A DNA stretch of 64,000 nucleotides from Carcharhinus amblyrhynchos (taxonomy: Eukaryota). The stretch lies in NCBI GenBank assembly GCA_965287045.1, contig OZ336882.1, positions 72,974,001 to 73,038,000 of the forward strand, written 5' to 3'. A program made the translations under genes and the position numbers. Shown here piece after piece: positions 2,291 to 54,813 of the stretch; positions within the stretch are counted from its first letter, which is position 1; each line of letters starts with the position of its first letter. Under the pieces are notes generated by a model that saw nothing but the letters and a program-made list of their open reading frames with translations, was not told the DNA's origin and did not search any database.

Positions 2291-2360
2291 ATGGTGCGCG
2301 CCGCAATCCTGCAAATAAAGGACATTTACTATCCTCTGCTTGCGACCTTTGGTGTTCCAG
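2291..2360 (+). CDS. GPR139-like: GPR139/GPR142-like GPCR gene A, coding exon 1 (MVRAAILQIKDIYYPLLATFGVP)
   Basis: ATG at 2291; 70 nt (23 codons + 1 nt) ending CCAG|GTAAGT. The phase-1 intron splices in frame to the acceptor at 3981, giving FGVP-ANIMTIVILS, which matches the TM1 of GPR139 (LGLPANILTVIILS). Too short for the ORF track. Confidence 0.9.
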
Positions 2361-3349
2361 GTAAGTCCGAGTATATCCTGTCGATGAATAGGTATGAGAC
2401 TATCTGACGTGTTGTCACTGATTATTTTTTAACAACTTGCCCATCATAATATCATAAAGCGCTACTCCAGTAGGCAGCTCTTCTCTCTTCCCAATAATAA
2501 CTTTAAAAGCTTTATATGCAATGAATGATTATTCGAGCTACAGTCACTTCCATCCCACCTCTTGGAAACATAATTTGTCGATCATTTGTTTAAAGAACAA
2601 CAAATGCTTCAATGCGCATCCGGAGATTCCTCCATGTGGCTTAACTCACCACTGAAGATCTGGTCATGTTATTGTGGGATGTACTCAGGCTCTTACAGTT
2701 CAAGATGGAGTACACCATCAGCTGTATCTAGCGCTCAGGCAGCCTTTAAGGTGGCTGTCGATGTTAAAAGTGCATCTTCAGGCGACAAAGAAGAGCATGT
2801 CCTCAGGCTTCTTTGCCGAGCTGCTATGTTACTCTACAATGAAACGATGCAACATGAAAACAATTCCTGGCCATCTCAATGGGCCAGGGGAATTTCATGA
2901 GCATCAGCGGGCATGAGCAATATAAAACGTAGTTTTGGAGTAATTTCCACGATTTCACACACGTAGGTATAAGTACAGTCAGTGAAAAAAATCTTAAATG
3001 TCGTCATTTGCTTCCGGTTGTGCCACAGAATAGATGACGTGGCATCCATGGCTTTCAAATTGTTTTTGCAGTGATTCGAACTCAACATGAGGAAATCCCT
3101 CTTTTTTTTGCTCTGATGCCAACTGCCAGAAATGAATATCTACTTCAGCCTTTTAGCTCTTCCCAGTAATGGCACAAATTATTCCGGGCCGTTATTTGGA
3201 ATTGCAAATGTAAGCTGGAAAAAAAATTGACAAGGAAACACATTACAGCCCAGTTGAGGTTTCCCCATAAGCCTTGACTAGTGATTAATCCCCGCTCCAT
3301 TATTCAGCTTTACGGATATGTACAAAAAAAAATCTTCATGGTTCGGACA

Positions 3350-3630
3350 GGAATGCTGAAATCAAGCAGTCAGCGTTGGAGATAAGCAACACGTCAGGTG
3401 GCACATGGTGGTCAGGAGACAGGGGAGGACAGTCACCAAGCATAAATGAGTATCGGACAGCACCATGGTGACGCTAAATGTGGGACTGCAAGGACGCTAA
3501 ACAAGTGATGTAATGAGAAAAGAAAGAATTAGCGTTTATACTTCTATTGACATCCCACAAAATTGAAAGGTTACCTCTGCTTCTCTTTCCACGCAGGCTG
3601 CCTGACTTGATTTCCAGCATTTCTGCACTG
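3350..3630. mobile_element. Palindromic Penelope-type repeat remnant in the receptor intron (homologs ~19075-19350 and ~53250-53530)
   Basis: Arms atgctgaaatcaagcagtcagc (3354) and gctgcctgacttgatttccagcat (3597) are reverse complements. A related element lies at 46760-46940. Confidence 0.55.
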
Positions 3631-3980
3631 CGCTCACTGTTAAGGAAGAATCTCCCGCTTGTGAGTCGCTGTTGAATATTCCCCTTCAATTGGTGCTTAA
3701 AACTTATAATACTCCTCCCCCACCACACCCGACCTTCTTCCACGCCCCCCATGGCTTTCCTCTGCTCGTTTGTTCCTTTATGTTCTCCAACACAGTCGAT
3801 TCCCTTTTCTTCTGGGATAGATTATTTAATTTGGTATTGATTTTTATCCGTTTATTCCCTCATTCCCATTAAAGTGTTCTGTTTACTTGGCACATGCAGA
3901 CACTCTGCTAAGTAGTCAAAGAGACAAACTTTTCTTTCAGATTGACTGAAGTGCTCTTATTTTCCTTCTTCATCTTCCAG

Positions 3981-4885
3981 CGAACATTATGACCATCGTG
4001 ATCCTCTCCAGAGGAAATTGTGGTCTCTCCAAATGTATCTCCGTCTACATGGTGGCTATGGCTGTAGCGGATCTGCTGATCATGGTGTTCAATGTAGTCG
4101 TGTATCTGATCTTCAATTACCACTTTCCGCACTCCATTCTGTCCTACACTGCTGTGTGTAAGTTCATTCTGTACATTACTTTTGTTAATTTGGATATGTC
4201 AGTGTGGTTCACAGTTTCATTTACATTTGACCGCTTTGTTTCCATCTGTTGTCCGAACTTTAAAGAGAAATATTGCACGAAGAGAACTGCAACTACGATT
4301 ATAGTAACGGCCGCCGCTTTGACCTATTTAAAAGGTGTCCCTATGTTCTTTTCGTACGAAGCTGAACAAAGCATTGACAATGTGCACTGGGGCTGTCGGA
4401 CAACGCAGGCCGTTTATACATTGCCCGCATGGTCTGTGTACAGCTGGATGCAGTCAAGCTCACTTGTGCTGCTGCCTTTTGCTCTCATGATGCTGTTTAA
4501 CTCTTTAACCGTCAGACGTATTTTGTTGGCAAATCGTGTACGCAGAGGCCTCCGGATTAGTGGAAATGAGAATCAGAATGATGCAGAAGTGAAGAGCCGA
4601 AGAACATCCATCCTCCTGCTCTTCACGATAACAGGCAGCTTCATAATTTTGAGGTTAACAGCTGTTGGGAGTTTTGCAGCCACCAGAATGACGAACAGCG
4701 TTTACCATCAAGGAGATTACTCCAATCCGGGATATATCGCCACTGAGAGTGGATATCTGCTCATGTACCTGAGTTCTTGTTCTAACACCTGCATTTATGC
4801 AGCGACCCAAAGGAAATTCAGAGGAGAACTAAAGACTGTGCTTAAATTTCCTTGGGCATATTTTTCCAAATTGGTGAAAGGTTAG
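3981..4885 (+). CDS. GPR139-like: GPR139/GPR142-like class A GPCR gene A, coding exon 2 (TM1 end to C-terminus; spliced protein 324 aa)
   Basis: Polypyrimidine tract plus CAG acceptor at 3980; contains the 298 aa ORF 3989-4885. Motifs: TM2 AMAVADLL, TM3 Cys (AVCKF), TFDRF (DRY motif), ECL2 Cys (WGCRT), LLPF..FNSLTVRRI, SNTCIY (NPxxY variant) and helix 8 RKFR. Confidence 0.92.
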
Positions 4886-5017
4886 AAAAAATTTAAGACA
4901 ATAAATGATTTCTCTCCAAACTGAAGCATTATTTTTCATATGTTTTCCTGTACAATAATGCTCCCCTTCTTAGAATCTGACAATGCGATATGTTGTTAAA
5001 TGATATAAATGATGTTG

Positions 5018-5023
5018 AATAAA
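5018..5023 (+). terminator. Putative polyadenylation signal of gene A
   Basis: AATAAA about 130 nt after the stop codon, kept at 20882 (gene B) and 54926 (gene C). A second AATAAA at 4900 is lost in C. Confidence 0.45.
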
Positions 5024-5489
5024 AGTTGATGAAAGCAAACACTTGACGTGATCACCAAAGCACAACACCCTCAGAGATCATGTGGTGCCACTGGAGAATG
5101 GATGTGTGAACTCATCAACTACGATAGTGCAGTCAATGTTCATTCTTACACCTTGCCTATTAATGGAATAAATTAGTTGCTCTATTAATGCTTGTTCGGA
5201 TAAGGAACCGTTGCTAAAATTGTATGTGGGGGGAATTATGGCCGAAACGTTTTCTCTTTCAATGCAGGGATAAAGATCAGCACGAAAGGCGACTGAATAT
5301 TTGTTCGATAGATGCATGTGAGTACACCACATTGCACAGAGAGCTAGGGAGAGACTTGTTGTTATCGAAAAGGAAAGGTACTTATGCAAAATGCTTAAGA
5401 AATGCAGCGCATCAACGAGAGATGCTGGGCCAGCATGATATTACATGGGTGGCGTTGGTTGGAGGGCGTGGGGTGGAATTGGGCTTAGG

Positions 5490-6070
5490 ATGTGGTGAAT
5501 AGGTAGAAATGTGGCACACTTACATTTATTCACCGAGATGTAGAATATAAGGGCAGGGAGCTTACGATGGAGCTGAATAAAGCAAACTTCAAGGCATAGT
5601 TCGTGTTGTGTCTGCATTTCTGGTCATCACACCAGATAAAGGTTGTGTGGCGAGAGAGGGCGTAAAGGAGATTTACGATGCTGCCTGCTCAAGGGAATTA
5701 CCACTACAAAGAGAAGCTCAGCTTGGCTTGTTTGTTTTCCCTAGAACAGTGAACGCTGGGGCGGGGGATGGGGGTGAGGAATAGGGGTGGGGTAACGATC
5801 GGAGTGTACAGATTTTGAGGTACATAGGTGGGCAATTATCAAATTCTTAAAGCTGTCAATGACCAGAGGACATAGGTTCAAATATTTAAATATAAGGTTC
5901 TGGCGGGAGATTTGGAGGAAATTTGAGGAAAATGCTCTGTCTCGCAAGGGGATGATGGAGAGTCAGAAATCATAGACTGAAATTGTTGTAGAATTGGGGA
6001 ACATCACGGTATTAAAAACACACACACACATTTAGAGGAGCACTTAAAATGCCATAATATATCAGGCTAA
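5490..6070 (+). mobile_element. Highly decayed CR1 3' fragment downstream of gene A (homologs ~21450-22010 and ~55410-55980)
   Basis: Recognisable CR1 3' ORF2 sequence (tagaatataagggcaggga, ttctggtcatcacacc, accagaggacataggtt, gatttggaggaaa). Confidence 0.55.
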
Positions 6071-6829
6071 AACTCTACGAGATAAGAGGTTTGAGTGTGC
6101 GGAAAGAGCACCGACTGCCAAAGCACTTCATTCAAATCAGAATGTCGGAACCAGAGGTAATGTGTTGGTGAAAAACATTAGTAGCCACATGCGCCTGGGA
6201 CAATGATAAGGAAATGACAAAAGAGCCAGAAAGGATTGGAAAAAAAATGCATATAACAGCGCTAAATTCGGCTGGGCCGGGGTGGGGCGCGGGGTGGGGG
6301 TAGGCTGGAAACGACCTGGTTACGCTGGGAGAGAAACAGAGGCGTTACTGTTACTGAAGTTTTAAAGAAAGGCCGTGGAGAAGGAATGTTAAATTTGGGG
6401 GGAACGTTACACCTTCGACAGAGCGATTGATTTAATTTAGTATTCTCAGGAAACATAAAAAGTTGGGAGAATCAGGAAATAGAGGGAAAATAACCATTTG
6501 ATTTACTTACAGAACTGGGGAAATTTATAAAAAGAACTCAAAATTTTGTAAACACCAACAAAGGTGTTTAACATCAATAAAACAATTAAAAATCTAGTTA
6601 TGTTTTCTGTGTTAAAAAAGGGGCACATTGTCAAAAAAATGTTGTAAACAAGCCAAGTTTGAAACAACCAGAACGTTAAGCCATTCAGTTCTATTCAGGG
6701 TGATTCTTCGTATTTTAAAAATTTGCATCAAATGATAGGAATTGTTAATTCAAATCGAAATACAATCTGAAAGGGGAAAATGTTTATTCGAAGTTGCACA
6801 AAAGAAAGTGGATGGCGCAATTTAAACAC

Positions 6830-9150
6830 AAGAAAATAAGAACTCAGAGTTCGAGGAGACCATCCGGCCCGTCGTGCATGGTCCCCCATCAGCAAGATCA
6901 TGGGTGATTTTTTCGAGGACTCGGCTCCACTTACCAGCCCACTAACCATGGCCCTTCATTCCTTTACTGTTCAAAAAATTATTTATCCTTGCCGTTTAAA
7001 AAAAATGTCAATGAGGTAGCCTGAACTGCTTCACTGGGCTGGAAATTCCACAGATTCACAACACTTTGTGTGAAGAACTTCGTCCTCAGCTCAGTCCGAA
7101 ATCTGTTCCCCCTTATTTTGAGACCATACCCCAGTTCTAATTTCATCTGCACTGGAAATATTTTTCCTGTTTCTACCATAGCTAATCCCTTCATAATCCC
7201 ATATGTTTCTAAAAGATCTCCCCTGATTCTTCTCAATTCTAATGAGTCTAGTCCCAATCTACTCAATCTCTCTTCATAAGCCAAACTTCTCAACTTCGAA
7301 TTCAACCGAGTGAATCTCCTCTGCATCCCCTCCAGTGCCAGTACGTTCTTTCTCAAGTAAGGAGACCAAAACTGTACACATTACTTCAGGTGTTGTTTCA
7401 CCAGAACCTTATATAGCTGCAAAGTAGCCTCACTGTTTTTTAAACTCCATCCCTCCAGGAATGAAAGATAACATATCATTTGTCATCTTAATGACTTGCT
7501 GCACCTGCACAACAACTCCTTGCGATTCATGCACAAGGATACCCAGGTCGCTCTGCACAGCAACATGCTGCAATATTTTACCATTTAATAATAATCAGTT
7601 GTGCTGTGTTTTCTGTTCTTACCAAAGTAGATGACGTCACATTTAGCAATATTGCTCTCCATTTACCAGATTCTTGCCTATTCATTCGAGTATTATAGCC
7701 CTTTGCAGACTTTCAGCGTTCTCTGCACACTTTGCTCTGCCACTCATCTGAGTGTCATCTGCAATTTTCTTGACACACGACATCTGGTCCCCAACTCCAA
7801 ATCATCTATGTAAAGCGTAAACAAGTGTAGTCCCATCACTGATCCCTGAGGCACATCACTCGCCACCGATTGACAATCTGAAAAACAACCATTTATGCCC
7901 ATTCTTAGCTTACTGTTAGTTAACCAATCTTCTATCCGTGCTAATACATTACCCACAACACGGTGCACTTTTATCTGATGCAGCAGTCTTTGGTGCAGCA
8001 ACTTGTCAAATGCCTTCTGGAAATCCAGAAACATCACATCCACAGGTTCCCTATTGTCCACCGCACGTGTAAAGTTCTCAACGAATTCCACCAAATTAGT
8101 CAAACATGACCCTCCCTTCATGAACCCGTGCTATGCCTTACTGATGGGACAATTTATACCCAGATGTTTCGCTATTTTTTCCTTGGTGATCGATTCAAAC
8201 ATTTTGCCTAGAATAGAATTTAAGCTAACTGACCTATAATTACCCGCCGTTCGTCTAACTTTTTTAAAACAATGGCGTCACATATGCTATATTTTGACTC
8301 AAAATACTGCTCTACTCCTCAGGAATTTTCTCATTTTCAGTTAGTGCATCTCCCTTCTCATCCGCTCAAGGATCAATGATTATTTTAGCCACCCTTTTTC
8401 ATTTCATATATTACCAGAAATTTTTGCTCTCTTTTTATACTCTGAGGGAATATGAGAGTAAATTATCTCAGAGTCTTACCTTTCTTTCTACCTTTTTCAT
8501 GGCATTATGGACCCTTAAATATTTCCCAATCCTCTAGTTTCCCACTAATCTTTGACACTCTGTATGTATTTTCTTTCAATTTAATACCTTCCTTTCTTTG
8601 CTTCGATGTCCATGGCTAATTGTCTCTTTTTCTGCAGTCCTTCCTAATCACTGGTAAATACCTTTGTTGTGTACTGTGAGAAATCTCTTTGTAAGTCCTC
8701 CACTGTTCCTCAATTGTCCCACCATAGTTTTTTGCTCCCATTCTACCTGAGTCAATTCCTCCTTTATTCCATTGTATTCTATTCTGTCTTACGCACAGCC
8801 ACGGGTATTGGATTTTACCTTCTCACACTCCATCTGTATTTTAAATTCAAGAATACAGTGATTGCTTCTTCCGAGGGGATTATTGTAAGATCAATAATTC
8901 TTCCTGTCTCATTACACAGGACCATGTCTACGTTAGCTTGCTCTCTCATAATTTCCATTACAAACTGTTCAAGGAAGCTATCACAGATACATTCTGTGAA
9001 CTCCTTCTCAAGGCTGCCTTAACCGACTTGGTGTGAACATTGACATATAAATTAAAATCCCGATGATAATGAGTGTCCTTTTTTTTACTATTTTTCAAGA
9101 TTACATTTATCATTATTGACTATTCCGCGATAACAGCGCCAACTCATTTC
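6830..9150 (-). mobile_element. Old, decayed CR1 LINE (endonuclease-linker-RT-3'UTR), copy A
   Basis: Minus-strand ORF pieces FLDFQKAFDK, VPQGSV.G..LF..YIDDL and LEGMQRRFTR; tail AAGAAAATAAGAAC at ~6830. Confidence 0.88.
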
Positions 9151-9899
9151 GGGCTATTCAGAAATGGCAGTGACCTCACAGTAGTTTCGTGACATTGTGA
9201 GGAGTGGAAATTTAAAATCAGCAAAATAATCATAAGAATGAGATAAGTGGTCCAAAAAACAGTGCGGATTTAAACATGAATAGCGTCTTGTTTCGGACAA
9301 CTGCTGATAAAATGCAACCTGCATTCACTCGAAATGTTGTCCTCTGGAATGCAAGCACTATCTCATTCTTCATCTCCACAAGGCCTGCTGAGTTTTGCCG
9401 TTGTCTGAAACGTTCACACAATGTCACTAAAATGAAATTGCGTCCACTTTATAAATTCAATATTCATGTTTTAAATGAGAAATAGTTTTTATTCATATGG
9501 TGCTGTTTGTTAAACAACAGCCCATGTCAGGCCTCTCCATAACCTAAGATCGTTTACTCTCAAGTCAGTTTAGTTAGTGTCAGTAAACCTTTGGTCCTGT
9601 GTTTTACAAGCCTATTCCACTCTTCCTGCCCCACCTGCCCCCGCCCACATCATTTGCCGCTCTCGGTCGTTGGGCAAAGACCTCTTGAAGCAACTAAATG
9701 GATATTTCTCAGTATCTAAACTTAGTTCTTACTACTTCTTTCGAATTTCCTATTTCTCCCTTCCTTACCCTATCTGCTGCCACTGATGCTGTAACGTCCG
9801 TGCATTTAGAAAGTCGTGCAAATCAATTTGTGATTAGATGTACAATCACGGCTAACATTAGGATCACAATTCAATAATAAAGTTCCGTGAAGGAACGGT

Positions 9900-11400
9900 G
9901 AATTCAGAGAGACTATCCAGCCTGGAAGCCAAGCACCTAAGGTAAATAGTGCAAGGTCTTTGTGTTTCCTACCTCCATCTTCATGGATACAACTAGATTA
10001 CTTGCGTTTTCTGAACTGCCTTGTATATAAGTGCAAATACTCTTCCAATTACTGCACATGTCCCTCCTCTTACTGCCTAGATTCAATCCAATGTCATACA
10101 TTGTTGAAGTCCCTCTGTACACATGACAACCATCTCATGAATGATCATCTTGAGGGCAGTTCCTGTATTGACAATTTGTTCCCAATGTAGCTCAGCTTTG
10201 TAATTTCTTGGATTGTTCGAAACACTCCATATTGGAGAAACGTTATGCCAAAACCCGGGCACCTTCTATCATAGCTCGCCAGCATCTTGGTATATGAGTG
10301 AGTTTATATATTTACAAAGCTTTCTTCGCTTAACAAATATCCCTGTGAAGTTGGTTCCCAGATCAGAATCCAAGTGTAGAGGCATGCCTGAACGAAGTAT
10401 TATTTCATTTATCAATCAAAACCATTGTTTTTGGCTGTAGCATCTTTGCACGGGAATGCTTCAGCCTAACATGGAGACTGATAAATGATCACCAGATAAG
10501 AGGTCTTTCCTTACACTTTGTTTAAGGGCCCTATCAAATCCATCTGCTTATTTCTCCATGGCCCTTTAGGTCATGTCGTTTTACCCATCTTGACTCTGCA
10601 GCGATGACATAATTCTACTCGGATGTTTTACAGGTACCTCTGAGCATCTCGCAATATCTCCTCCTTGTTGTATATGTGGTCCTCCTCTGTGTGCACTAAT
10701 CTGTGATATGTCTCCAATAAGTTTTGTTGTCCTACTTCCGGGGCTGTTATTTAGCGTTCCCTTCTCCATACACCATTTTGACCTCTCTTCCCTCCCCGTT
10801 TTCCCATTCCTGTTTCTCTTCCTCTGTGGCCTGTTCCTGTATCTCTTTCACATGAATATCTGTGATTCCCTGGCTTGTGCTGGTTTCCTGGACAGGTTTA
10901 TTGGATTCTCTTTCAGTACCCACTGTCATTTGCAACACGTATTGGATTAGGCACAAAATATATCACATTCGAATATTCATGTGTGAGCAGAAATTTCAGA
11001 TAATGGAATCCACATTCCAACTTGATTCCAGCATTTCGGTACAAGTGCCATCCATCTAACGAGTATGGCATCTCTTCATATCAATGAAATTCAAAATCAA
11101 AGGAGATTGAAATAAGGCAGGGTGAGAAGGTAGCATTCCACCCAATCGATTGTTTGCTTCCCTTGCGAAAACTTTTGAAATTTGACTTGGCTCTGCTCCC
11201 AAAAATTGAAATGGATCACTAGATTGTGTGAGGGTTCTGAACTCTTTCTGCAGACCATCTTATGACTCTTCATTCTTTCGCATTGAAGTTTCATCATCAT
11301 TTTCTGAGTAAATGTACAGTACAATCTGTACATCACAAGTGGTAGACTTCGGTTATTGGTGGCATTGGTGAGTCCCAGCTACTGAGTGCAGTGCTGGCTT
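9900..11400 (-). mobile_element. Decayed endogenous retrovirus pol fragment (connection/RNase H linker to integrase), copy A
   Basis: The minus strand translates to QMDLIGPL...YLVII...AEAFPCKDATAK and LINEIILRSGMPL.LDSDLGTNF (integrase core); the linker DIHVKEIQEQATEEEKQEW (ORF 10747-10956) is typical of class I/epsilon-like ERV pol. Confidence 0.75.
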
Positions 11401-11439
11401 AAACTATGGAAACTCCTCTGATCGGCCTCCAATGCCAGT

Positions 11440-11880
11440 ATGATTTCCCCTCGATAAAACAAATGAAGGCATTCATAATATTCAAGGGGTTGTGAAAATT
11501 ACCTGTTGCACAGTTTTAATGTGCCTTCCCTCATTTTTTCTTCATTCTGTTGGAAATAAAGGCAGACATTCCGTTTATCTTCCCAATTATCTGCTGAATC
11601 TGCATGCTTGTATTTGTGATGTATATACAAGGACGCCTAAATCCTTCTGTGTTGTAATTTTCTGCAGAATGTCTTCAGTTAAATAATAATCAGCTTATCT
11701 ATTGTTTCCGAGTGAAGCACAAAAGCTCACGTTGTTTTTGCATTATATTCCATCTGCCAAGTTTATCCCATCTGTCGCAACGAGTCCATACGTCTCTGTT
11801 GACTCCTTGTGTCATCACAGTAACTTGCTTTCCCATTTTTTGTGTCATCTGCAAACTTGACAAAAAATCCATTCACTTCC
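11440..11880 (-). mobile_element. Decayed CR1 RT fragment (homologs ~29310-29750 and ~62360-62800)
   Basis: gtgtcatctgcaaacttga encodes KFADDT on the minus strand; adjacent CR1-like sequence. Confidence 0.6.
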
Positions 11881-12559
11881 ATCTTCCATTTTAGTTTGTC
11901 ACTTCACTGAACTTCATGAAAATTAGGCTTGTTGTAAGTAACATGTCTGATTCTGTATCATTCGTCCACCATATATTGGCACTGCACACAGCACTAAATG
12001 CTGTGATGCTTGGCATGGATCACACTGCTATTCACCAAACACAACGTGTTCCTTTCCCAATGGGTCACACAACTTGTCTTCTCATTTTTTTCTGCTTCAT
12101 GAATAAGGTTTTACATTTGGATTGCCACTCAATGAGGTTCTGAATTTATGTTATGGAGCTTAACTGGTTATTGTATAAAATTAATATTATGCTTATATTG
12201 GTGTATTGACGGTTTACATTACGCCCCAGTTTAAGGATGGTGGAGTAAAATCTCATGAATTGCTTACCTCTCCCCCTACCTAACACGCCTGGGCTTCAGC
12301 TCTCATTCTCGCTGTCTTCATCACTCTCTTTCTAACTCGGTTTCTTTTTCTCCCTCGCTTTTACTGCATCTGTTTTATTCAAACAAAGCCAGAAGATAAG
12401 GTATTCTCCCTCATTTCACTGAATTTCCCACTGACACATTTCCAATTCTTTTTGCACTTCTTCTCCCTTCATACAGTCCTCAGCTTAACCTATGTGAAAA
12501 AATCTATATGTTGCCTCACTTACTTCACTCCTAACTTCCTCTTTCCACTGCGATGCAAA

Positions 12560-13020
12560 TGCATATTGCCACTTGTCAGCACAAGCATGGATATAATGTA
12601 AACATTTCTGCACTTGTCCTGCTTCATTATGCGAGGAGTTGGAAGAGGAGCTGGGAATTGTGCAATCATTTGCAAGCCACTTCTGATTTGTTGATGGACA
12701 GAACGTCACTGACGAAGGAATTGAAGATAGTTGGTCCGTGAACACTACCCTGAAGAACTTCCACAGCGATGTCCTGGAAATGTAACCACCTAAACCACTT
12801 TCATTTGTGTGAGGTATGATTCCTACTAGCAGAAAAGTTGACCTTGATTCCCATTGACACCAGTTTTGTTGGTGATTCTTCAGCTGATACATGGTCAACC
12901 ACTCTCTTTCTGACAAGAGAAGTCACCCTCAACATGCTTCTTTGTAACGTCACGTTATTGTCTCTCATGCGGGCTGGATCAGACACTATCAGAAATTCAT
13001 GGCGTCTGATTGACAGCCCT
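12560..13020 (-). mobile_element. Decayed non-LTR RT fragment, same family as 44900-46640 (homologs ~30420-30870 and ~63450-63925)
   Basis: The reverse complement resembles 45600-45910 (catcttcagctg...aggtcagaa...gctgacaagtggcaa). Confidence 0.6.
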
Positions 13021-13274
13021 GGTCTATAACGAAGAGATAAAGAAAGAGACAGGAGGTAAAAGTAGAATATGACGTCCCTTTAATGTCCCACATCATAAAA
13101 GATCCATCAGCAACCAAAAGTAATGTTAAGTTTCACTGCTTCCAATTCCATTGGCTTCCAGTGAACCAGTAAATTGTTTGGAATAATAATTGTGACCCTT
13201 TTGGAACCTTCCCTGCCCTGATTTGCCTTCTTGTAATCCCAAAGCATACAATTTTGTATGTTCTGTTATTTTTT

Positions 13275-43585: not shown

Positions 43586-43668
43586 GAAAACATGTTTAAT
43601 ATTACAGATGAACTGTAGGATATAATCCACTCATCGAGCTGGAAAAGGCTGCAACCATGACCATACTG

Positions 43669-44429: not shown

Positions 44430-44860
44430 GTTAGCTTCCACCAAAGAAACAGACTTCGCTGGAGGCCATGCTCCTGTCTACATAAATGGGGATAAAATGG
44501 AAATGGATAGAGGCTTCAATTTCTTGGTGTCCAGATCACTAACTTGTTCAGGTTCCTCCACACTAATGTTTTCTCAGGAAGCTAAGGAAATTTGGCTTGT
44601 CCAGTAAAGCTCTCACTATTTTTTACAGATGCACCATAGAAAGTATCCTTTGCAGCAGTATCACAGCTTGTTATGGCTCCTGTTCTGTCCAAAACGCAAC
44701 AAACTGCAAGGTGTTGTGGACGTTGCCGAGTCCACATAAACCACCCTCCCTTCAATTGACACTGTGTGCACTTCGCGCTGTCTTGATAAAGCACACAGCA
44801 TAATCAAGGACCCTGTGCACCCGAGCCGTACTCTCCTTCACCTTCTTCACTGGAAAAATA
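44430..44860 (+). mobile_element. Rex1/Babar-like LINE fragment
   Basis: ORF 44597 ALTIFYRCTIESILCSSITACYGS and AHSIIKDPVHPS..L.HLL are characteristic of the Rex1 C-terminus. Confidence 0.75.
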
Positions 44861-44899
44861 AACAACAAGTGATAGACAGAGCTAAGCGATCCCGCAACC

Positions 44900-46640
44900 A
44901 ATGTATCAGAGCAAGCTCTGCAGTCCTGCAACATTCTGTCGCACATGGTGGTGGACAATCAAATAATTACTGTTGAAGGAGGCCCCGCAAGCATCTTCAT
45001 CCTCAGTAATGGAGGAGCCCAGCACTCAGTGCAAAATATAAGGTTGACAAATTTGCAGGAATCTTCAGCCATAAGTTCCAAGTGGATGATTCATCCCGGC
45101 CTCGTCCAGTGGCCCCCAACTTCAAATATGCCAGTCTACAGCCAATTCGATTCACTTGACCTGATACCAAGAGCTGGAAGCACAGAATACCTCAAAAGCA
45201 ATGGACCCTGATAACATTCCGGCAATTGTACTGAAAACTCGTGCTGCCAAAATTGCTGTTTCCCAGCCAACTCCTTCTAATGCAATTCAATCATTGGCAT
45301 TTACCTAACAGCTTGGAGAATGTCCTGTGCCCAAATCAGGACAATTTCAATCCCAGCATTTACCACTGCATCGGACAACTCTTGATCATCAGAAAAGCGA
45401 TGGAAGGCGCCATCAACAGAGCTGTCAGGCAGCACTTGCTCGGCAATGACCTGCTCAGTAGAGCCCAGTTTGGCATCAACAGAGTCACTCAGCTCTTGAC
45501 TTCTTTGTTTAAAACATCGAAAAATGGGCTGAATGCCAAAGGTGAGATGAGAGTGGCATTCAATCGAGCGTGTAATCAAACAGCCCTAGCAAAATAGGAA
45601 TCAACGGGCTTTGGTGGTAAAGTCCCAGATGGTTGGAGTCATCCCTGGTGCAGAGGATGATTGTTGTGTTGAGGGGGTCAGTGATCTCAACTCCAGTATT
45701 TCTATGCAGCCATCCATCGGTACAGTGTTCTAGAGCCAAACATCTTCAGCTGTTTCATCAATGACCTTCCCTCTATCATAAGGTCAGAAATGGGGTTGTT
45801 TACGGATGATTCAGCGCTATTCACAACTCATCAAAAACTGGAGTAATCAATGATTAAATGTAACAAAATCTGGCCAATATCCAGACCTGGGCTGACAAGT
45901 GGCAAGTAATAATCTGGCCATACAAATACAGGGCAAAGACCATCACCATTAAGGGGCAATCTAACTACTACCCCTTGGCATAAAATAGTGCCACCATGAT
46001 TAAATCGCCCCGTGAACATCTTTGGGGTTACCATTGACCAGCAAGTCAACTGGATTAGCCACATAAACACAATGGCTACAAGAGAGGGCGTGATGGTGGG
46101 AATAATGCAGCGTATAACTCACCTCCTAACTCCAAAAAAACTATCCACCATCTAAAGGCAAGTCAGGAATGTGATAGAATACTCACCACTTGCCTGGATG
46201 GCTGCAGCTCCAACAACACTCAAGAAACTTGACACCATCCAGGACAAAGCAGTTCGCTTGATTGGCACAAAAATCCACTCCCTCCATCACCGACGCTCAG
46301 TTGCGGTAGCATGTACCATCTACAAGATGCTTTGCAGAAATTTACCAAAGATCCTCTGACAGCACCTTTCAAACCCACGAACGCTTCCATCTAGAATGAC
46401 AAGGGCAGCAGTTATATGGAAATACCACCACCTGAAACTTCCCCACAAGCCTCTCATCACCCTGACCTGGAAATATATTGCCGTTCCTTTACATTGCGGG
46501 GTCAATATCCCTCTGTAACGGTATTGTGAGTCAACCGACAGCACGTGGACTGCAGCGTTTGAAGAAGGCAGCTCACCCACCCCCTGCTCAAAGGCAAAAA
46601 AGGATGGGCAATAAATGTTGGCCCATGTGCCACGAATTAA
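44900..46640 (+). mobile_element. Decayed CR1/L2-group LINE (RT plus 3' UTR)
   Basis: RT pieces AQFG, FINDLP..IRSE.GLFTDD and EYSPLAWMAAAPTTLKKLDTIQDKAVRLIG; 3' end gggcaataaatg...aattaaaaa. Confidence 0.8.
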
Positions 46641-46759
46641 TTAAAAATATTGAGACTGCTCTGAGGAAAATCAAATCCTTGCAGCTCGCTTGTACCCTGA
46701 AAATCTGAATTTGCAAATGCAAAAGTTCTAACATTCCATTTTGTGCGTGATCAGTGAGC

Positions 46760-46945
46760 GAAGAAAAAATGCTGAATTCTCCAGTCAGTGCAAATACGTG
46801 CTTAAAAGGTCCGGGGGCATCTGTGGAGAGAGAAACATAGTTCCTGTTTCAAATCCTTACGAATTTTCTTCAGAACTGCGGGGTATTTTCTTTTTTTATC
46901 TAATTTCAGATTTCCAGCATCCACGGCATTCTGCATTTCCATTAG
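46760..46945. mobile_element. Shark-type Penelope-associated palindromic repeat fragment
   Basis: aaaatgctg...gcatctgtggagagagaaacatagtt...atttcagatttccagcatcc. Confidence 0.55.
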
Positions 46946-49900
46946 CAAATCTACATAACTGTGCGCAGGACTGTGAATGATATAGTAATTTAAATCACAC
47001 ACCGCGGCAGGATTTGGATTAAATCTGTATCCGTCGACCTCTTGCTCTGAATTAATATTGTGAGATTCACACAGTCCCGATCAATTTTATCGCAGATGTG
47101 ATTTGGGCGCTGGGATTCCTGCATAAATCTGTCAATCACACTGATTTGGAGTGAAGTAGAAAAGACGTGTTTCTCTCTTACCCTGTTTGAATGTTAGATT
47201 AAAATATATCCCTGGAATTTGGGAATATCGTGGAATTGACTACTTCTGATGTCAGTGCCTGTGGAACTGATGAGCTGTCTGTGTCGCTGGGTCTCTGTGT
47301 TATGTTGTAGCTAACACGTGTGAGAATAAACTGCTTTCGTTTCCTATTCTTATACCTCAGGTGGAATGTTCAAAAAGAATCAAAGGGAAGGTATGTGATA
47401 TGATGGAGAGTTGGAGAGAGTCAATTAAAAATGCGACAACATGGCTAAAAAAAACCCCTGCATGGTCGAGGGAGGTAATGGGATCAGTAAAGAAACAAAC
47501 AGTAGCCGGATGAATGGCATGTCCCTGAATGGACGAAAGGAAAGAAAATAAGAGATGAAGCATCTTAAAACGGAACAAAATGGTGGTAGATATTACCATG
47601 AATGTTACGGTGTCCCATTAATGTCCCACATCATAAACGATCCATCAGGAACCAAAAGTAATGTTAAGGTCCACCGTTTCCAATTCCTTTGGCTTCCAGT
47701 GAACCAGTAAATTGTTTGGAATAATAACTGTGATCCTTTTGGAACACTCTGTGCCCTGATTTGCCTTCCGGTCATCCCAAAACATCCAACTTTGTATGTT
47801 CTGTGTTTTTTTTTTGTAGCAAAGTTGTTAACACTGAAATCTCACAGCACCAGAGACCCTGGTTTTATTCCTCACTTGCGTCAGGTTCTCTCCACGCCTG
47901 TGTGGCTTTTCTCCAGGTGCACTGGTTCCCTCCTAATAGGGAATGACATGCTGGTTAGGTGCATTGGCGATGTTAAGTTCAGCCTCCCTGTCCCTGAGAA
48001 CGCGCCAGCATGTAGCTTCCAGGTGATTTCCACAGCAACACCATTGCAATGTTAATGTTAGCCTACTCGTGACACTAATAAATGACCTTAAAACTTTCAG
48101 GCCTTTGTTGTAACAGAGATTTTCAAATTATTCACAGCATTGCACAGTGGCAGACATCTTTCAATCAATGTACTCCGGCATCAGGGATTCAAAGTAACAC
48201 AGGTTTAGACGAATCAATGGAATTTGTTCTACCATTCAAAGATCTCATAATTAATTTGTGCCCACCTCTATAGACATACGTGTTACAATTCCCCATTCTC
48301 GACCTTAAAAATATATACAGATAAAGCCATCCTTCTGGCTACCTGATGAAACCTCTAACGCTCTTAACCATCTCTCTATCGTTCTTTACATCTGACGTTT
48401 CCAAGGAGCTGCATTGCAAAATGTACCGGCAAATTATAATCAGAACACTGTCTCTGGAATGCAAGAGGAGTATTCTTAAAAATCTGCTTTTGTCCATTCC
48501 TCGATATCAATAATTTAAACGCCAGAATTCAAAATTATTTCAGTAACTCGGCTCGAATTGTTGTGAAGTTCAGTTTGTAAAGATATAATGGCAGGAGACA
48601 AAATGCATTAACAATTGTGTGTTCCCTATAAAAACTGATATTTTGTTGAAATACCCGGAGGTTTAAAATGCAAAGTACATCCAGTGGTCAAGATGAAACA
48701 TTTGTATCTCAATGTCAGACAATAATCTTGAATAGTAACCTGTTTGTGTTTGAATGTTGTCTAATTGATTTGAAGCAGGCACTCAGAAACCAAAAACCTA
48801 TAAGATTTGAAATTGATGGTACTGATAATGGTGGACGAATCCTATTGTAGGAAAGTTGATCGGTCACGGGAGGTGCAAAAGAGATTGCAAGGGGGGAGAA
48901 GAAAAAACATTTGGCTGACAATGCCATCTCTCAAGCCTTAAGGGAGATAGAGCACACAAATGCCACTTGCCAAGAACAAAGGGTTCTAAGCTTGACACAC
49001 CATGCCAGATTCAGATATCTCTCAAGTGAACAGATAATCTAACCAGTGAAAGGTGCAGAATCATAAATAACTCACAGACAGAAAATTCAACCGAAAAGCT
49101 TCAGAAGACTCCAAAGGATACCAAACCTGGTTGCATACTTACTGGGAGTGAGAAAACTATTGTTTCGTTGTTAATGAATGGACATTGGTTCTGTCAAATG
49201 AATGGACAACTGGCCTTAATGTGGAGTAACACTAATCAGTGTGGGTTCAATTCCAATATCGGCAAGGTTATTCAAAACTGATGGCCTTCTCAATCTTGAC
49301 ATTTTCTGGTTGAGCCACTACCACACAGTTGGGAAATATTTTTTAAACATGTTTTGTGGGGGGAAGGGTGGAGGGAGAGGGGGAGGGAGTGAGTGGAGGG
49401 AAGTGGTGTGGAAGGAGGAGGAGCGAAGGGAGGGTCAGGGAAGAGGGATGGAAAGGCGTGGAGGGAGGGGCGGGGGAGGGGGGGGCGGGAGTGGCGGGGT
49501 GAGGGAGGGGGAAGGAAGTGTTGAGGGTATGAGGAAGTGAGGGGGAAGTGACGGGGAGAGTAGGGGGATGGAGGGGGTGAGCGAGGGGGGAGAAGATGGT
49601 CGGGGGAGGAAGGAGATAATGTGTGGGTGAGTGGCTGGTGGTTGGGTTTAAATCGGGGAAGAGGAAAGTGGATATGAGTCCACAATCCGATCATTCTCGC
49701 TTCTGTATGTCACAATGTAAATTCCCCATAATGTTGCAGTAACGTTCCACTGTGTGAGAATTCTTAGATGGTACTGGACTGAAATATTGCAATGCCAGTC
49801 TTGCAAAACAGAAAATTGTTGATAATGTATTGGTGAATGTCGCAGTGAACTGTGTTCATACATTTTGAAAGAGAATAAGGAAGGCGATGCATCCGTAAAC

Positions 49901-52203
49901 TATCTGAAAATGATATTAAGGAATAATGCGAAGCGTTTGATGTTCCAACATGACTAACACGTGGTACTGCAAACCAGCAGAGACAGTTTAGTAAATACTT
50001 CGAATCGAACAAAGACAATTCTGGAAGGGCAGCTTACATAAAAGGTGGCTATCACATTTCTAATTAAATGAAGTTAAAGTGCTGAAGCAGGTAATGTTGA
50101 AATCGATAATTCAGGGTCACAGTTTCCGGGTGAGCATCCAATGACATTGATACAGGTGTCGATTTGGAGCATTACTTTGAACTAAGCCAGGTTTCCAAAT
50201 CAGTCCATATTGCTTACCACTTCCAGCCCAGCCTCCTCCCAGCTTTCCTTGTCTGATTCTAGTATCACACTCCACATTTTCCTCCTCGCTCACATACCTA
50301 TACAACTCCCTCCTCATTGCCCATTCACCTTAACTTGGCATGGATTGAGAATTGTTTAGCAGACTGAAAACAAAGTGTAGGGACAAATGAACACTTTCGA
50401 AGTTGCAGGCTGTGATTTCGGGAACCATCAGGGATCTGGGCTTGGGTCCAGCTATTTAAAAGATGCTTCAATGATTTTGGTGAGGGAACGAAAAATAACA
50501 TTGACAACTTTACTCTCACAAAACATGTGAGGAATTTGAGTGTTGTGAAGGATGCTCAGAGGCAGCAAATTGATTCAGGCAAGTTCAATATGAGGGAAAA
50601 CACATTACGATGCCGTACAATGTGAGTAAATGTAATGTAAATAACGTTGGACAGAGAAAAAGAATGTTAGAATACTATTTATATCATGATAGATGGGGAA
50701 CGGTCGACAATGAAGGAGACCAAGATGTCGTTGTTTACCAGATATTAAGGAAATCATGCAGGCAAGGCAAGCAGGCAGGTGGCAATTGATAGGCTGGCCT
50801 TCATTGAAAGAGGGCTTTAGTGAAGGAACAATAATGCCTGGCTGGAGATGCCCAAGTCTTTGGTGAGAACACGACAGAAGTATTGTGTGCAGTTTTCGCC
50901 TCATAATCTGAGAAAGAAGTGGAGCCAATTGACACCGGACTGAATTCAGGGAAAGCGTGTTTCCATTATGAGATGAGAATGAGTTGAATGTACATGCATT
51001 AACTGTAAATTAGAATAATTTGAAAATACAAAAATATTTGACATGTTTGGAAAGATTGGATGTTGGGATGCCATTGCGATGGCAGAGTGGGAAGGGGCTC
51101 AATAATGAGATGTCACGACTTTTGAATATTGGTGGGCCATTAACGGTTGAGATGAGGAGAGACATCTTCACTCAGAGGGTGGTGAGCCTGCGGAATTCTC
51201 TACTACAGGTGATGGTGGCGGTAAATAAACTGAATATATTAAATAGCAACATGTAGGCAGAACAGGATAAGTTCAGTAGTTTGAAACTAGATAGGGAGGG
51301 ATTTTCGTATGAGGAGACGTTGAACAGGTTGTGCCTGTTTAAAAGAATGAGAGACGACCTTATTGATGCATATAATACTCATCGACCTTCTTGAGACATA
51401 TAAGGGGCTTGACAGGATGGATGCTGAAACAGGGGTTCTCCTTGTGGGACGGTATTGGACTAGAGGGCATTATCTCAACGTAAGGGGTCGTCCGCTTAAG
51501 ACAAAAATGAGGTGTAATTTCTTCTTCCAGAGAATCCTGAATCCATGGAAGACTTCGATGCGTGGGCGATCGAGGCTGTGTCATTAAGTATACCCAAAGT
51601 TGAAAAAAGGTTCATTGTAAGAGGGCTTCAGTACAGAAAAAAAAATGACATCTGATTGGAGCTGTATATGGCTTTGTTGAAACCACAACATTGTTAATGT
51701 TTAGTCGCTGCTATTAGCCTCACTACAAGATGAGCAACAGAAATGTTAAACTGACTTCAAAACAATCATGTTAGAGTCGCAAAACTATCAGCAAAAGCTG
51801 CGTTAGGTTGTACCAGTCACATTTTTATTGAGTTAGCACCAAGAACAGAATCATTTGATGCCAATGCTGTCACTTTTAAGCATTTTCTATAAGCTATTTC
51901 TTTTTTGAAAACATCAAACCCAGAACCCGAGACACTTCAGCTCGGGGGATTTTGGTGCGTCAAGAGTGCACTTCCTCTGAGATTCCAATACATTCCGCTT
52001 GGTGATTTCAAAGGGGGTCTCGACCCGGGTGCAATGAGGAAAAAAAAACACCTTTATTTGTTCAGTCACAGTAATTAATCACGTGCAATATTATGTCACT
52101 AGCAGAGACTAGATTGTTACATAAATGGGGCTCATTGATACTTGAGAGATCTACTTTGCGTGGAACAGAAGAATTCGGAGGGAAATGCCCGCCTCTTCAT
52201 GAA

Positions 52204-52273
52204 ATGGCGCGCGCCGCGATCCTGCAAATAAAGGACATTTACTATCCTCTGCTAGCGACCTTTGGTGTTCCAG
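52204..52273 (+). CDS. GPR139-like: GPR139-like gene C, coding exon 1 (MARAAILQIKDIYYPLLATFGVP)
   Basis: 70 nt exon ending CCAG|GTAAGT, seen inside ORF 52093-52296; phase 1. Confidence 0.9.
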
Positions 52274-53884
52274 GTAAGTCCGAGTATATCCTGTAGATAA
52301 ATAGGTATGAGACTATTTGACTGCTTGAAATTTATTTCGCTGGCCCAGAATTGTCTTCCTATGTGTACAGTAGGCAGCTCTTCTCTCTTCCCAATAATAA
52401 CTGTAAAAGCTTTATATGCAATGAATGATTATTCGACCTGCATTCATTTCCATCCCACCTCTTGGAAAGATCATTTGTCGATCATCTGTTTAAAGAACAA
52501 CAAATGCTTCAACGCGCATCCGGAGTTTTCTCCACGTGGCTGAACTCGCCACTGAAGATCTCGTCATGTTATTGTGGGATGTACTCAGGCTCTTACAGTT
52601 CAATTTCGAGTACACCATCGGCTGCATTGAGCGCGCAGGCAGCCTTTGAGGTGGCTGTCGATGTTAAAGGTGCATATTAAGGCGGTAACGACCGGCGTGT
52701 CCTCAGGCTTCTTTGCCGAGCTGTTATGTTACTCTACAATGAAACGATGCAGCATGAAAACAATTCCTGGCCATCTCAATGGGCCAGAGGGATTTCATGA
52801 GCATCAGCGGGCATGAGCAATATAAATCGTAGTTTTGGAGTAATTTCCACGATTTGACACACGTAGGTATCATGACAGTAAGTGAAAAAAAAATCTGAAA
52901 TGTCGTCATTCGCTTCCGGTTGAGCCACAGAATAGATGTTGTAGCATCCATGTCTATCAGATTGTTTTTGCAGAGATTCGAACTCAACATGAGGAAATCC
53001 CTTTTTTTTTGCTCTGATGCCAACTGCCAGAAATGAATATCTTCTTCAGCCTTTTAGCTCTTCCCAGTAATGTCACAAATTATTCCGGGCCATTATTTGG
53101 AATTGCAAATATCAGCTGCAAAAAAATGACAAGGAAACACATTACAGCCCAGTTGTGGTTTCCCCATAGGCCTTGGCTAGTGATTAATCCCCGCTCCATT
53201 ATTCAGCTTTACGGAGATGTACAAGAAAAAAAAATCTTCATGGATAGGACAGGAATGCTGAAATCAAGCAGTAAGCGTTGGAGATAAGCAACACGTCAGG
53301 TGGCGCATGGTGCTCAGGAGAACAGGGGAGGACAGTCACCAAGCATAAGTGAGTATGGGACAGGACCATGGTGACGCTAAATGTGGAACTACATGCACGC
53401 TAAACAAGTGATGCAATGAGAAAAGAAAGAATTAGCGTTTATACTTCTATTGGCAGCCCACAGAATTGAAAAGTTACCTCTGCTTGCCTTTCCACATAGG
53501 CTGCCTGACTTGATTTCCAGCATTTCTGCACTGCACTCACTGTGAAGGAAGAATCTCCCGCTTGTGCGTCGCTGTTGAATATTCCACTTCAATCGGTGCT
53601 TAGAACTTATAATACTTCTCCCGCACCACACCCTGAACTTCTTCCACGTCCCCCATGCCTTTCCACTGCTCCTTTGTTCCTTTATGTTCTCCAACACAGT
53701 CGATTCTTTTTTCTTCTGGGAAAGATTATTTAATTTGGTATTGATTTTTATCAGTTTATTCCCTCATTCCCATTAAAGTGTTCTGTTTACACGGCACATG
53801 CACACAATCTGCTAAGTAGTCAAAGAGACAAACCTTTCTTTTAGATTGACTGAAGTGTTCCTGTTTTCCTTCCTCTTCTTGCAG

Positions 53885-54813
53885 CGAACGTTATGACCAT
53901 CGTGATCCTCTCCAGAGGAAATTGTGGTCTCTCCAAATGTATTTCTGCCTACATGATGGCTATGGCTGTAGCGGATCTGCTGGTCATGGTGATTAGTGTG
54001 CTCCTGTGTCAGATCTTCGGTTATCAGTTTCCGAACTCCTTTTTGTCCTACACTTCGGTTTGTAAGTTCATTCTGTACAGTGGTTATGTTAATTTGGATA
54101 TGTCAGCGTGGTTCACAGTTTCATTTACATTTGACCGCTTTGTTTCCATCTGTTGTCCGAAATTTAAAGAGAAATATTGCACAAAGAGAACTGCAACTTG
54201 GATTATAGTAACGGTCTTCGCCTTGACCTATTTAAAAGGTGTCCCTATGTTTTTTTCGTACGAAGCTGAACGAATCATTGACAATGTGCACTGGGGCTGT
54301 CGGACAACGCAGGCCGTTTATACATTACCCGCATGGTCTGTGTACAGCTGGATGCAGTCTGGCTCAGTTGTGCTGTTGCCTTTTGCTCTCATGATGCTGT
54401 TTAATTGTTTAACCGTCAGACGTATTTTGTTGGCAAATCGTGTACGCAGAGGCCTCCGGAGCAGTGGAAATGAGAGTCAGAGTGACCCAGAAGTGAAGAA
54501 CCGAAGACAATCCATCCTTCTACTCTTCACGATATCGGGCAGCTACATAATTCTGTGGTTAACAGCTGTTGGGAGTTTTGCAGCCACCAGAATGTCGAGC
54601 AGCGTTTTCAATCAAGGAGATTACTCCAATCCGGGGTATATCGCCACTGAGACTGGATGCCTGCTCATGTACCTGAGTTCCTGTTCCAACACATGCATTT
54701 ATGCAGCGACCCAAAGGAAATTCAGAGGAGAACTAAAGAATGTGCTGAAATTGCCTTGGACATATTTTTCCAAATTGGTGAAAGATGAGGAAGAACTTAA
54801 GACAAACCAATGA
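53885..54813 (+). CDS. GPR139-like: GPR139-like gene C, coding exon 2 (spliced protein 332 aa)
   Basis: ttcctcttcttgcag| acceptor at 53884; intact 306 aa ORF 53893-54813 with the same 7TM motifs and an 8 aa longer C-terminus. Confidence 0.92.

What the first reader, a model, noticed from the sequence alone, without database searches (positions are those of the whole stretch)
2291..54813. Tandem, actively duplicating array of GPR139/142-like receptors: a candidate lineage-specific chemosensory (amino-acid) receptor repertoire
Seen in the sequence: three intact two-exon 7TM genes and a fourth exon 1 within 64 kb, very short N-termini with no N-glycosylation sequon, clustered divergence between paralogs, and a likely damaged copy. 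Established: mammalian GPR139 and GPR142 are single-copy receptors for aromatic amino acids (Trp/Phe), and cartilaginous fish have small classical OR repertoires. Inference: tandem birth-and-death evolution of short-N-terminus class A receptors is the genomic pattern of chemoreceptor families, so this may be a largely uncharacterised sensory receptor family. An immune or gut sensing role fits equally well.
Basis: partly seen in the sequence, partly recalled or inferred. Interest (0 to 1): 0.85.

Follow-up and report, generated by a model that had tools for sequence, protein, structure and literature searches.

The report
Overlooked shark receptor gene family cluster
This stretch of shark-like DNA holds several copies of a cell-surface receptor from a large, unstudied family in sharks and rays whose ligand pocket varies strongly between copies, so it may be a missing set of chemical sensors, although where it is expressed and what it detects are unknown.

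Summary
Confirmed: three open two-exon class A GPCR genes (324, 324, 332 aa), an orphan fourth exon 1, and a Trp6.48-to-Arg change in copy A. They sit in tandem units about 9% diverged, and a fourth unit starts at the window end. The duplication is real and lineage-specific but not fresh.

The genes belong to a large shark and ray radiation: at least 37-38 distinct proteins each in three sharks, against 8-43 V2Rs reported per cartilaginous-fish genome. They are not GPR139 orthologues. Their sister group is a single-copy amphibian/sturgeon orphan gene, and human GPR139 scores lower than amphibian, teleost and some invertebrate-like relatives.

Pocket-lining sites are the most variable part among shark and ray paralogues (2.08 bits against 1.50 and 0.82) but nearly invariant in amphibian orthologues (0.04). 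GPR139's Trp/Phe anchors are mostly gone (Arg/Lys6.51 in 1 of 136). A diversified sensor repertoire is therefore supported; the amino-acid ligand is not. The short, unglycosylated N-terminus is ancestral and not diagnostic.

No expression data were reachable. Sensory use is my best guess (0.45); immune or barrier sensing is the main rival. None of the papers I could search describes the family.

The parts
2291..2360 (+). Gene A exon 1 (ATG, 23 codons plus 1 base; short N-terminus and first half of TM1)
   Evidence: GT donor follows
3981..4885 (+). Gene A exon 2 (rest of the 7TM; protein 324 aa); likely impaired copy
   Evidence: 7tm_1 73.5 bits, cut-off 30.5; end branch 0.055 against 0.017 for B
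4652..4654 (+). Codon 248 of gene A: Arg in place of the conserved Trp6.48
   Evidence: Trp in 133 of 136 relatives; W241H abolishes Trp/Phe responses of GPR139 (PMC5430874)
17900..17969 (+). Gene B exon 1
19845..20749 (+). Gene B exon 2 (protein 324 aa); the least changed copy
   Evidence: (model of the exon-2 protein, mean pLDDT 84)
41401..41470 (+). Orphan exon 1 (D) of a different subfamily; no exon 2 of its own in the window
   Evidence: 17 of 23 residues match a Scyliorhinus torazame paralogue (P0109), a different clade from A/B/C
52204..52273 (+). Gene C exon 1
53885..54813 (+). Gene C exon 2 (protein 332 aa) with derived changes clustered in outer TM2-TM3
1..13072 (+). Duplication unit A (begins before the window)
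   Evidence: self-BLAST; junctions
13074..30918 (+). Duplication unit B, head to tail after A
30919..47611 (.). Non-duplicated spacer: repeat remnants and exon D
   Evidence: only dispersed-repeat matches to the rest of the window
47612..63973 (+). Duplication unit C
63974..64000 (+). First bases of a further unit: the junction matches the A/B junction, so another copy probably follows the window
   Evidence: the gene itself is inferred, not seen

Best explanation
The window is part of a cluster of a large shark and ray family of two-exon class A GPCRs. The family grew from one orphan receptor of the GPR139/GPR142/MIP-receptor branch, which survives as a single conserved gene in amphibians and sturgeon. 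Shown: repeated tandem duplication, a conserved cytoplasmic face, a hypervariable pocket, and loss of the Arg6.51/Asn7x38 anchors. Locally, a unit of about 14-18 kb was doubled head to tail and the pair was probably copied again as a larger block, which cut off neighbouring gene D after exon 1. B stayed close to the orthologues, C changed its outer TM2-TM3 pocket, and A lost Trp6.48 and is probably decaying. Inferred: each paralogue binds a different external small molecule or peptide and signals through a shared G protein, so the family works as a chemical-sensing repertoire in sensory cells (nose, taste, skin or sensory neurons). Conserved Asp3.37 and Glu7.36 and an often charged 5.42 hint at basic ligands (amines, basic peptides) more than at aromatic amino acids; this last step is weak. 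I put the genomic and evolutionary part at about 0.9; the figure below is for the whole statement, sensory use included.
For: All 120 listed hits of gene B's search are 51-83% identical to it; 119 are named shark, ray or skate proteins and 1 is unnamed. Named rows from three searches give 169 clusters in 17 species, with 37-39 each in Heptranchias, Heterodontus and Pristiophorus. A, B, C form their own clade (100/99) inside an orthologue group with one cluster each in six other sharks and three in Heptranchias. The amphibian/sturgeon gene is sister to the radiation (100/99), with one row per species in 20 amphibians. Pocket entropy in 136 paralogues is 2.08 bits (27 sites) against 1.50 for other outer-half sites (p 0.003) and 0.82 for the inner half. 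In 20 amphibian orthologues the order is reversed: 0.04 against 0.43 and 0.34. dN/dS is 0.33-0.57 between A, B, C, so the genes are under constraint. Precedent: nematode srw chemoreceptors are closest to peptide receptors, and 29 of 90 Aplysia chemosensory-like genes score best to srw (PMC3963977 passages). Cartilaginous fishes have only about 10-50 known olfactory receptors despite large organs (PMC10116579 passages).
Against: No expression or ligand data for any member were seen. A variable pocket with tandem gain and loss is equally typical of immune receptor families (own knowledge). Catshark olfactory neurons are nearly all Go- and TRPC2-positive microvillous cells, and V2Rs are shown to be expressed there (PMC10116579). 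C's clustered changes are not significant positive selection (pN/pS 0.78-1.27 in TM2-TM3) and could be relaxation. In 72 teleost orthologues the pocket is not significantly more conserved than the rest (p 0.12), so the control works in one of two outgroups. The pocket list is recalled from general class A knowledge, and paralogues are not independent samples. Monophyly of the radiation has 84/92 support, below the starred level.
Confidence: 0.45

Rival explanations
1. An immune or barrier surveillance repertoire: the same diversified receptors sit on granulocytes, mast-like cells or epithelia and detect microbial or damage-derived peptides, as formyl peptide receptors and MRGPRs do in mammals.
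For: Same genomic and pocket signature. Nearest solved folds and sequences are peptide receptors. MAS1 and its relatives are reported lacking in cartilaginous fishes (PMC8455134 passage), which leaves room for a functional stand-in (inference; MRGPR biology is recalled).
Against: No expression data. The GPR139 branch is described as neuronal or neuropeptide-related (PMC8557429, PMC5430874 passages). The one readable supplement of a nurse shark spleen paper had no mention, but it is 4,750 characters long and so uninformative.
Confidence: 0.25
2. Aromatic amino-acid sensors with a GPR139-like pocket, tuned to different amino acids, in nose or gut.
For: GPR139 is the best solved-structure match by profile (112 bits against 86 for the next). 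Trp6.48 is kept in 133 of 136, and His at 5x43 is the commonest residue, 49 of 136. B and C keep an aromatic residue at 3x33.
Against: Arg/Lys6.51 in 1 of 136, Asn7x38 in 13 of 136, Phe or Tyr at 3x33 in 39 of 136. N271A and F109A strongly cut Trp/Phe responses in GPR139. R244 is the modelled anchor, but its mutants did not reach the surface, so its role was not measured. GPR139 is a distant relative (88 bits).
Confidence: 0.1
3. Receptors for internal signals (neuropeptides, or gut or reproductive ligands, pheromone-like peptides included) that diversified along with a peptide family.
For: The branch's protostome members bind amidated aromatic peptides, and GPR139 responds to ACTH and MSH peptides (PMC8557429 passages). 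The invariant pocket of the amphibian gene implies one fixed ligand in the ancestor.
Against: Dozens of paralogues with species-specific gains and a hypervariable pocket are hard to square with a fixed endogenous ligand.
Confidence: 0.12
4. Mostly neutral copy-number drift in a repeat-rich, duplication-prone region; the extra copies are redundant or decaying.
For: A has lost Trp6.48, D is truncated, dN/dS is raised (0.33-0.57), the units are full of LINE remnants, and relationships switch along the units as expected from gene conversion or unequal crossing-over.
Against: All three frames are open after about 9% flanking divergence, with dN below dS (Fisher p 0.0001-0.02). Many subfamilies are shared between distant sharks, and some between sharks and rays. 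Variation is concentrated in the pocket.
Confidence: 0.08

Closest known systems
Human GPR139 (PDB 7VUG and related entries)
   Same: Best solved-structure match by profile; similar TM1 start and TM3 motif, Trp6.48, acidic 7x35.
   Different: Only 37 bits by single sequence, level with the CCK-B receptor. The window genes have Thr at 6.50, Ala at 6.51, Tyr or Cys at 7x38, a Cys3.25 that GPR139 lacks in the alignment, and a longer third intracellular loop. They are multi-copy.
Single-copy amphibian/sturgeon orphan receptor, auto-named 'probable GPR139' (P0216 group)
   Same: Sister group (100/99); same 24-26-residue N-terminus without sequon; similar intracellular loop 3.
   Different: One row per species in 20 amphibians; pocket nearly invariant, with Lys6.51 and Asn7x38 in 20 of 20. 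About 33% identical to gene B.
GPR210A/GPR210B, fish, gar and coelacanth orphans next to GPR139/142 (PMC6504862 passage)
   Same: Same neighbourhood of the tree; the single-copy teleost gene and the unnamed P0225/P0234 pair are plausible matches.
   Different: That survey's text does not mention sharks (0 occurrences) or an expansion. Its accessions could not be compared, so the match is unproven.
Shark V2R/OlfC repertoire (PMC10116579, PMC6368271)
   Same: Tandem, dynamic, lineage-specific copy number of similar size (8-43 genes).
   Different: Class C receptors with a large extracellular domain (own knowledge) and shown olfactory expression; unrelated in sequence.
Nematode srw and Aplysia chemosensory-like receptors (PMC3963977); mammalian MRGPRs and FPRs (recalled)
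   Same: Sensor repertoires recruited from peptide-receptor-like class A ancestors.
   Different: Independent expansions. The window genes have no srw match and only a sub-threshold Srx score.

Membership tests
Class A (rhodopsin-like) GPCR | 7tm_1 profile above the curated cut-off and a seven-helix fold | tested here: met
   73.5-77.6 bits against cut-off 30.5; model with the TM helices and helix 8, pLDDT 84; Foldseek hits are class A receptors
GPR139/GPR142 branch, broad sense | GPR139 is the nearest characterised relative | tested here: met
   Top PDB hit for both profiles: 112 bits against 86; only hit at E<=1e-19. Only solved structures were compared.
GPR139 orthologue or direct paralogue | Closer to GPR139 than to other vertebrate orphan lineages | tested here: not met
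   Shark-and-ray-only profile: GPR139 88 bits, amphibian gene median 234, teleost gene 142, unnamed invertebrate-like rows up to 121 (local rebuild of the same alignment)
GPR139 orthologue or direct paralogue | Trp/Phe pocket F3x33, H5x43, W6x48, R6x51, N7x38 | tested here: not met
   A: F,Q,R,A,Y; B: F,Q,W,A,Y; C: Y,Q,W,A,C; family counts
GPR139/GPR142 | Placement on a tree that holds true GPR139 and GPR142 sequences | not testable with these tools
   No search returned either as a stored sequence; GPR142 was never compared
GPR210A/B (PMC6504862) | Orthology to the named coelacanth accessions | tested here: inconclusive
   Distribution of the outgroups fits; sequences not available
OR, V1R/ORA, V2R, T2R | Match to their Pfam families | tested here: not met
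   Only 7tm_1 and a weak Srx match at E<=0.01
TAAR / amine receptors | Asp3.32 (recalled hallmark) | tested here: not met
   3.32 is Thr, Ala, Gly in A, B, C; Thr and Asn commonest in the family
Nematode-type Srw/Srx chemoreceptors | Score above the curated cut-off | tested here: not met
   Srx 18.2 and 22.5 bits against 23.8; no Srw match
Chemoreceptor repertoire (works-like test) | Tandem clusters with lineage-specific gains and damaged copies | tested here: met
Chemoreceptor repertoire (works-like test) | Pocket variable among paralogues, conserved among orthologues | tested here: met
   met against amphibian orthologues, not significant against teleost orthologues
Chemoreceptor repertoire (works-like test) | Sparse expression in sensory cells and activation by external chemicals | not testable with these tools
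   No expression table could be read

The most novel reading that the evidence does not exclude
This is an unrecognised olfactory receptor family of its own origin, as large as or larger than the V2Rs in many sharks and rays and expressed sparsely in olfactory neurons. It would explain why sharks seem to have so few smell receptors, and would be another independent vertebrate recruitment of a peptide-type GPCR for smell.
Probability: 0.22. Interest if true: 0.92.

Novelty: new variant of a known kind. Interest (0 to 1): 0.68.

Why it matters
Sharks are said to get by with about 10-50 olfactory receptors and few GPCRs overall (PMC10116579, PMC8455134 passages). A family with at least 37-38 members in each of three sharks, hidden under the automatic label 'probable GPR139' and with the pocket pattern of a sensor repertoire, lies outside the four families those olfactory counts cover. 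One look at existing catshark organ transcriptomes would show whether it fills the gap in smell, or serves skin, gut or immune sensing. The single-copy amphibian sister gene offers a way to find the ancestral ligand and to see how a fixed-ligand receptor became a repertoire.

Tried and rejected
Assembly artefact (haplotype duplication): rejected; the units differ by about 9% and carry separate LINE insertions.

An exon 2 for D inside the window: none. D as an alternative first exon for C's exon 2 is phase-compatible and not excluded, but there is no evidence for it; the one S. torazame isoform with a shared exon 1 (P0039) is an internal deletion of the same gene.

Positive selection on C: not shown. 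Promoter likeness between D and A/B/C: weak (global alignment matched or beaten by 10-30 of 1000 random windows, local by 53-190 of 1000). Foldseek does not discriminate among peptide-type class A receptors (GPR139 rank 6). Rfam: 0 matches. The ESM Atlas gave the same automatic names.

Literature: searches (GPR139, GPR142, receptor 139 or GPR210 with shark or expansion terms) listed no paper on this family, judged from listings. One search was too loose to inform. Term look-ups in main texts and supplements found no mention. Unseen and possibly relevant: the supplement of PMC11979771 (too large), files 13-24 of PMC8455134, the figures and supplement of bioRxiv 10.1101/2025.06.08.657570 (Fig. 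5A, Fig. S3 and Table S4 label tandem clusters in ray genomes and might name this family), and subscription journals.

Names for several unnamed representative proteins (P0225, P0234, P0242, the invertebrate-like outgroup) stayed unknown. No eukaryotic genome collection was available, so flanks, synteny and genome-wide counts are unchecked. No chimaera, lungfish, coelacanth or lamprey row appeared in the 265 listed rows, which does not show absence.
Full report
What is in the window. Six-frame translation gave three long receptor frames on the + strand. Each is exon 2 of a gene whose 70-base exon 1 lies 1.6-1.9 kb upstream, joined by a phase-1 GT-AG intron: A (2291-4885, 324 aa), B (17900-20749, 324 aa), C (52204-54813, 332 aa). 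All three pass Pfam 7tm_1 (73.5-77.6 bits, cut-off 30.5), and B's exon-2 protein folds as a 7TM bundle with helix 8 (pLDDT 84). A fourth exon 1 (D, 41401-41470) has ATG and donor but no exon 2 anywhere in the window. Its 23 residues best match another subfamily (17 of 23 to S. torazame P0109). Copy A has Arg for Trp6.48; 133 of 136 relatives have Trp, and changing this residue in GPR139 abolishes Trp/Phe responses (PMC5430874 passages).

How the array arose. Self-BLAST shows three units: A (to 13072), B (13074-30918) and C (47612-63973), 85-94% alike, with a 16.7-kb spacer before C. The end of C repeats the A/B junction almost letter for letter, while B's end and C's start run into different flanks. 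The simplest reading (inference) is that a unit was doubled head to tail and the pair was copied again as a larger block, which stranded exon D; a fourth copy should follow the window. Non-coding divergence is about 8-12%, and the closest pair switches along the units: A with C in the intron, A with B over exon 2 (2.8% in its first 360 bases). This suggests gene conversion or unequal crossing-over. LINE ends 98-100% alike sit at different places in B and C, so the units are true paralogues and older than those insertions. 'Actively duplicating' is not shown. dN/dS is 0.33 (A-B), 0.57 (A-C) and 0.54 (B-C), each below 1. C's changes cluster in TM2-TM3 (13 of 31 in 40 residues, p 0.001) and are mostly derived (22 of 31), but pN/pS there is 0.78-1.27, which does not prove positive selection.

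The family. Gene B found 1404 proteins among 2107 candidates. Only the best 120 were listed; 119 are named shark, ray or skate proteins, mostly auto-named 'probable GPR139', and 1 is unnamed. The other 1284 were not seen. The 50%-cluster library held 102 representatives at E<=1e-30. Pooling named rows gives 169 clusters in 17 species: 39 Heptranchias, 38 Heterodontus, 38 Pristiophorus, still 37-38 after merging near-identical pairs. These are lower bounds from 265 listed rows, though a few rows are isoforms or faulty gene models. Heterodontus rows come from seven contigs over 19 Mb, 15 of them from the contig that holds B's closest match. On trees, A, B and C form their own clade (100/99) inside an orthologue group with one cluster each in six other sharks and three in Heptranchias. 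The host is therefore a shark by inference; no listed protein is its own. For scale, cartilaginous fishes have 6-13 ORs and 8-43 V2Rs (PMC10116579 passages).

Is it GPR139? Only loosely. By single sequence GPR139 scores 37 bits, level with the CCK-B receptor. By profile it is the best solved relative (112 against 86 bits). A profile built only from shark and ray proteins gives GPR139 88 bits, below an amphibian gene (median 234), an unnamed pair (215-235), a teleost gene (median 142) and unnamed invertebrate-like receptors (up to 121) (local rebuild). The amphibian gene has one row per species in 20 amphibians, plus a sturgeon row, and no amniote row. It is sister to the shark and ray radiation (100/99); the radiation itself has 84/92 (41 rows, without GPR139 or GPR142, which I had no sequence for). 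PMC6504862 (passages) names fish and coelacanth orphans next to GPR139/142 as GPR210A/B; these may be the outgroups here, which I could not test. PMC8557429 (passages) places GPR139/142 as sister to protostome MIP, proctolin, FMRFamide and myosuppressin receptors.

The pocket. GPR139 uses F109, H187, W241 and N271 for Trp/Phe responses, with R244 as modelled anchor (PMC5430874 passages). Mapped through the HMMER alignment, B has F,Q,W,Y,A at these five sites, C has Y,Q,W,C,A and A has F,Q,R,Y,A. Across 136 named paralogues (33 of 169 dropped for length outside 285-350 aa), Arg/Lys6.51 occurs once and Asn7x38 13 times. The amphibian (20 of 20) and teleost (72 of 72) genes keep both. With a recalled list of 27 class A pocket positions, entropy in paralogues is 2.08 bits against 1.50 for other outer-half sites (p 0.003) and 0.82 for the inner half. 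In amphibian orthologues it is 0.04 against 0.43 and 0.34; in teleosts 0.30 against 0.36 and 0.40, not significant (TM2, 3, 5, 6, 7 only). So the ancestor had a fixed pocket, and the radiation diversified it while keeping the G-protein side. Asp3.37 (90 of 136) and Glu7.36 (113 of 136) persist, a weak hint of basic ligands. The short N-terminus is ancestral: median 24, 25 and 27 residues before Asn1.50 in sharks and rays, amphibians and teleosts, with a sequon in 1 of 110, 0 of 18 and 1 of 66.

What it most likely does. The pattern is that of a sensor repertoire. I favour sensory cells (0.45) over immune or barrier cells (0.25), internal peptide signalling (0.12), GPR139-like amino-acid sensing (0.10) and drift (0.08). 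For: the branch is neuronal or neuropeptide-related, peptide-type receptors gave rise to srw and probably Aplysia chemoreceptors (PMC3963977 passages), and shark noses have oddly few known receptors. Against: no expression was seen, V2Rs are already shown in catshark olfactory neurons, and immune families evolve the same way (own knowledge). The top-50 list of a catshark brain and olfactory library held no GPCR of any kind (PMC11979771 section 11), which tells nothing either way.

Novelty. The genes are annotated automatically in databases, so their existence is public. Searches and term look-ups found no paper that describes the expansion. The library lacks most subscription journals, and a preprint's figure and supplement on tandem clusters in rays could not be seen. 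What I saw of each paper: passages of PMC11979771 (plus section 11), PMC8455134 (plus 12 of 24 supplements searched), PMC6504862, PMC8557429, PMC5430874, PMC12208981, PMC10116579, PMC3963977 and two bioRxiv preprints; the abstract of PMC6368271; supplement searches only for PMC13188829 (plus its search listing), PMC10115646, PMC11589584 and PMC10529500.

Verdict. The window is an ordinary-looking piece of a tandem array, but it points to a large, apparently undescribed receptor radiation with a testable link to an open question. It is a new variant of a known kind; interest 0.68.

Noticed in passing
window 26158-27169 (+), 19489-19638 (+), 56839-57270 (-): Young LINE (CR1-like by recall) 3' ends, 98-100% alike, inserted separately after the duplications; the longest keeps an open 304-codon reverse-transcriptase end.
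   Followed up: partly
window 63974-64000: The A/B junction sequence recurs at the very end, so another receptor unit probably follows the window.
   Followed up: partly
window 41231-41400 against 2121-2290: Upstream of exon D and of A/B/C there are collinear short motifs (forkhead-like, homeodomain-like, TATA-like by recall) about 80-150 bases before the ATG; overall likeness is weak.
   Followed up: partly
proteins P0216, P0272-P0291: A single-copy orphan receptor conserved across 20 amphibians and sturgeon, with a nearly invariant pocket (Tyr3.32, Lys6.51, Lys6.55, Asn7x38) and no amniote row; a good target for finding the ancestral ligand.
   Followed up: partly
proteins P0263 and 71 teleost rows: A second conserved orphan, one row per teleost species, with Ser at 6.48 but Arg6.51 and Asn7x38 in 72 of 72; it is mislabelled 'probable GPR139' and scores 60 bits against GPR139.
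   Followed up: partly
window 3981-4340 against 19845-20204: A and B are only 2.8% apart here against about 9% in the flanks, a possible gene-conversion tract.
   Followed up: partly
window 31276-33600 and 44567-46356: Broken frames that look like LTR-element and other LINE remnants in the spacer; Pfam gave only an ALKBH8_N match at 44567-44800, probably repeat-derived.
   Followed up: no
family-wide: Pro6.50 is replaced by Thr in 107 of 136 and Pro7.50 by Thr in 111 of 136, so both classic helix kinks are missing in most members.
   Followed up: no
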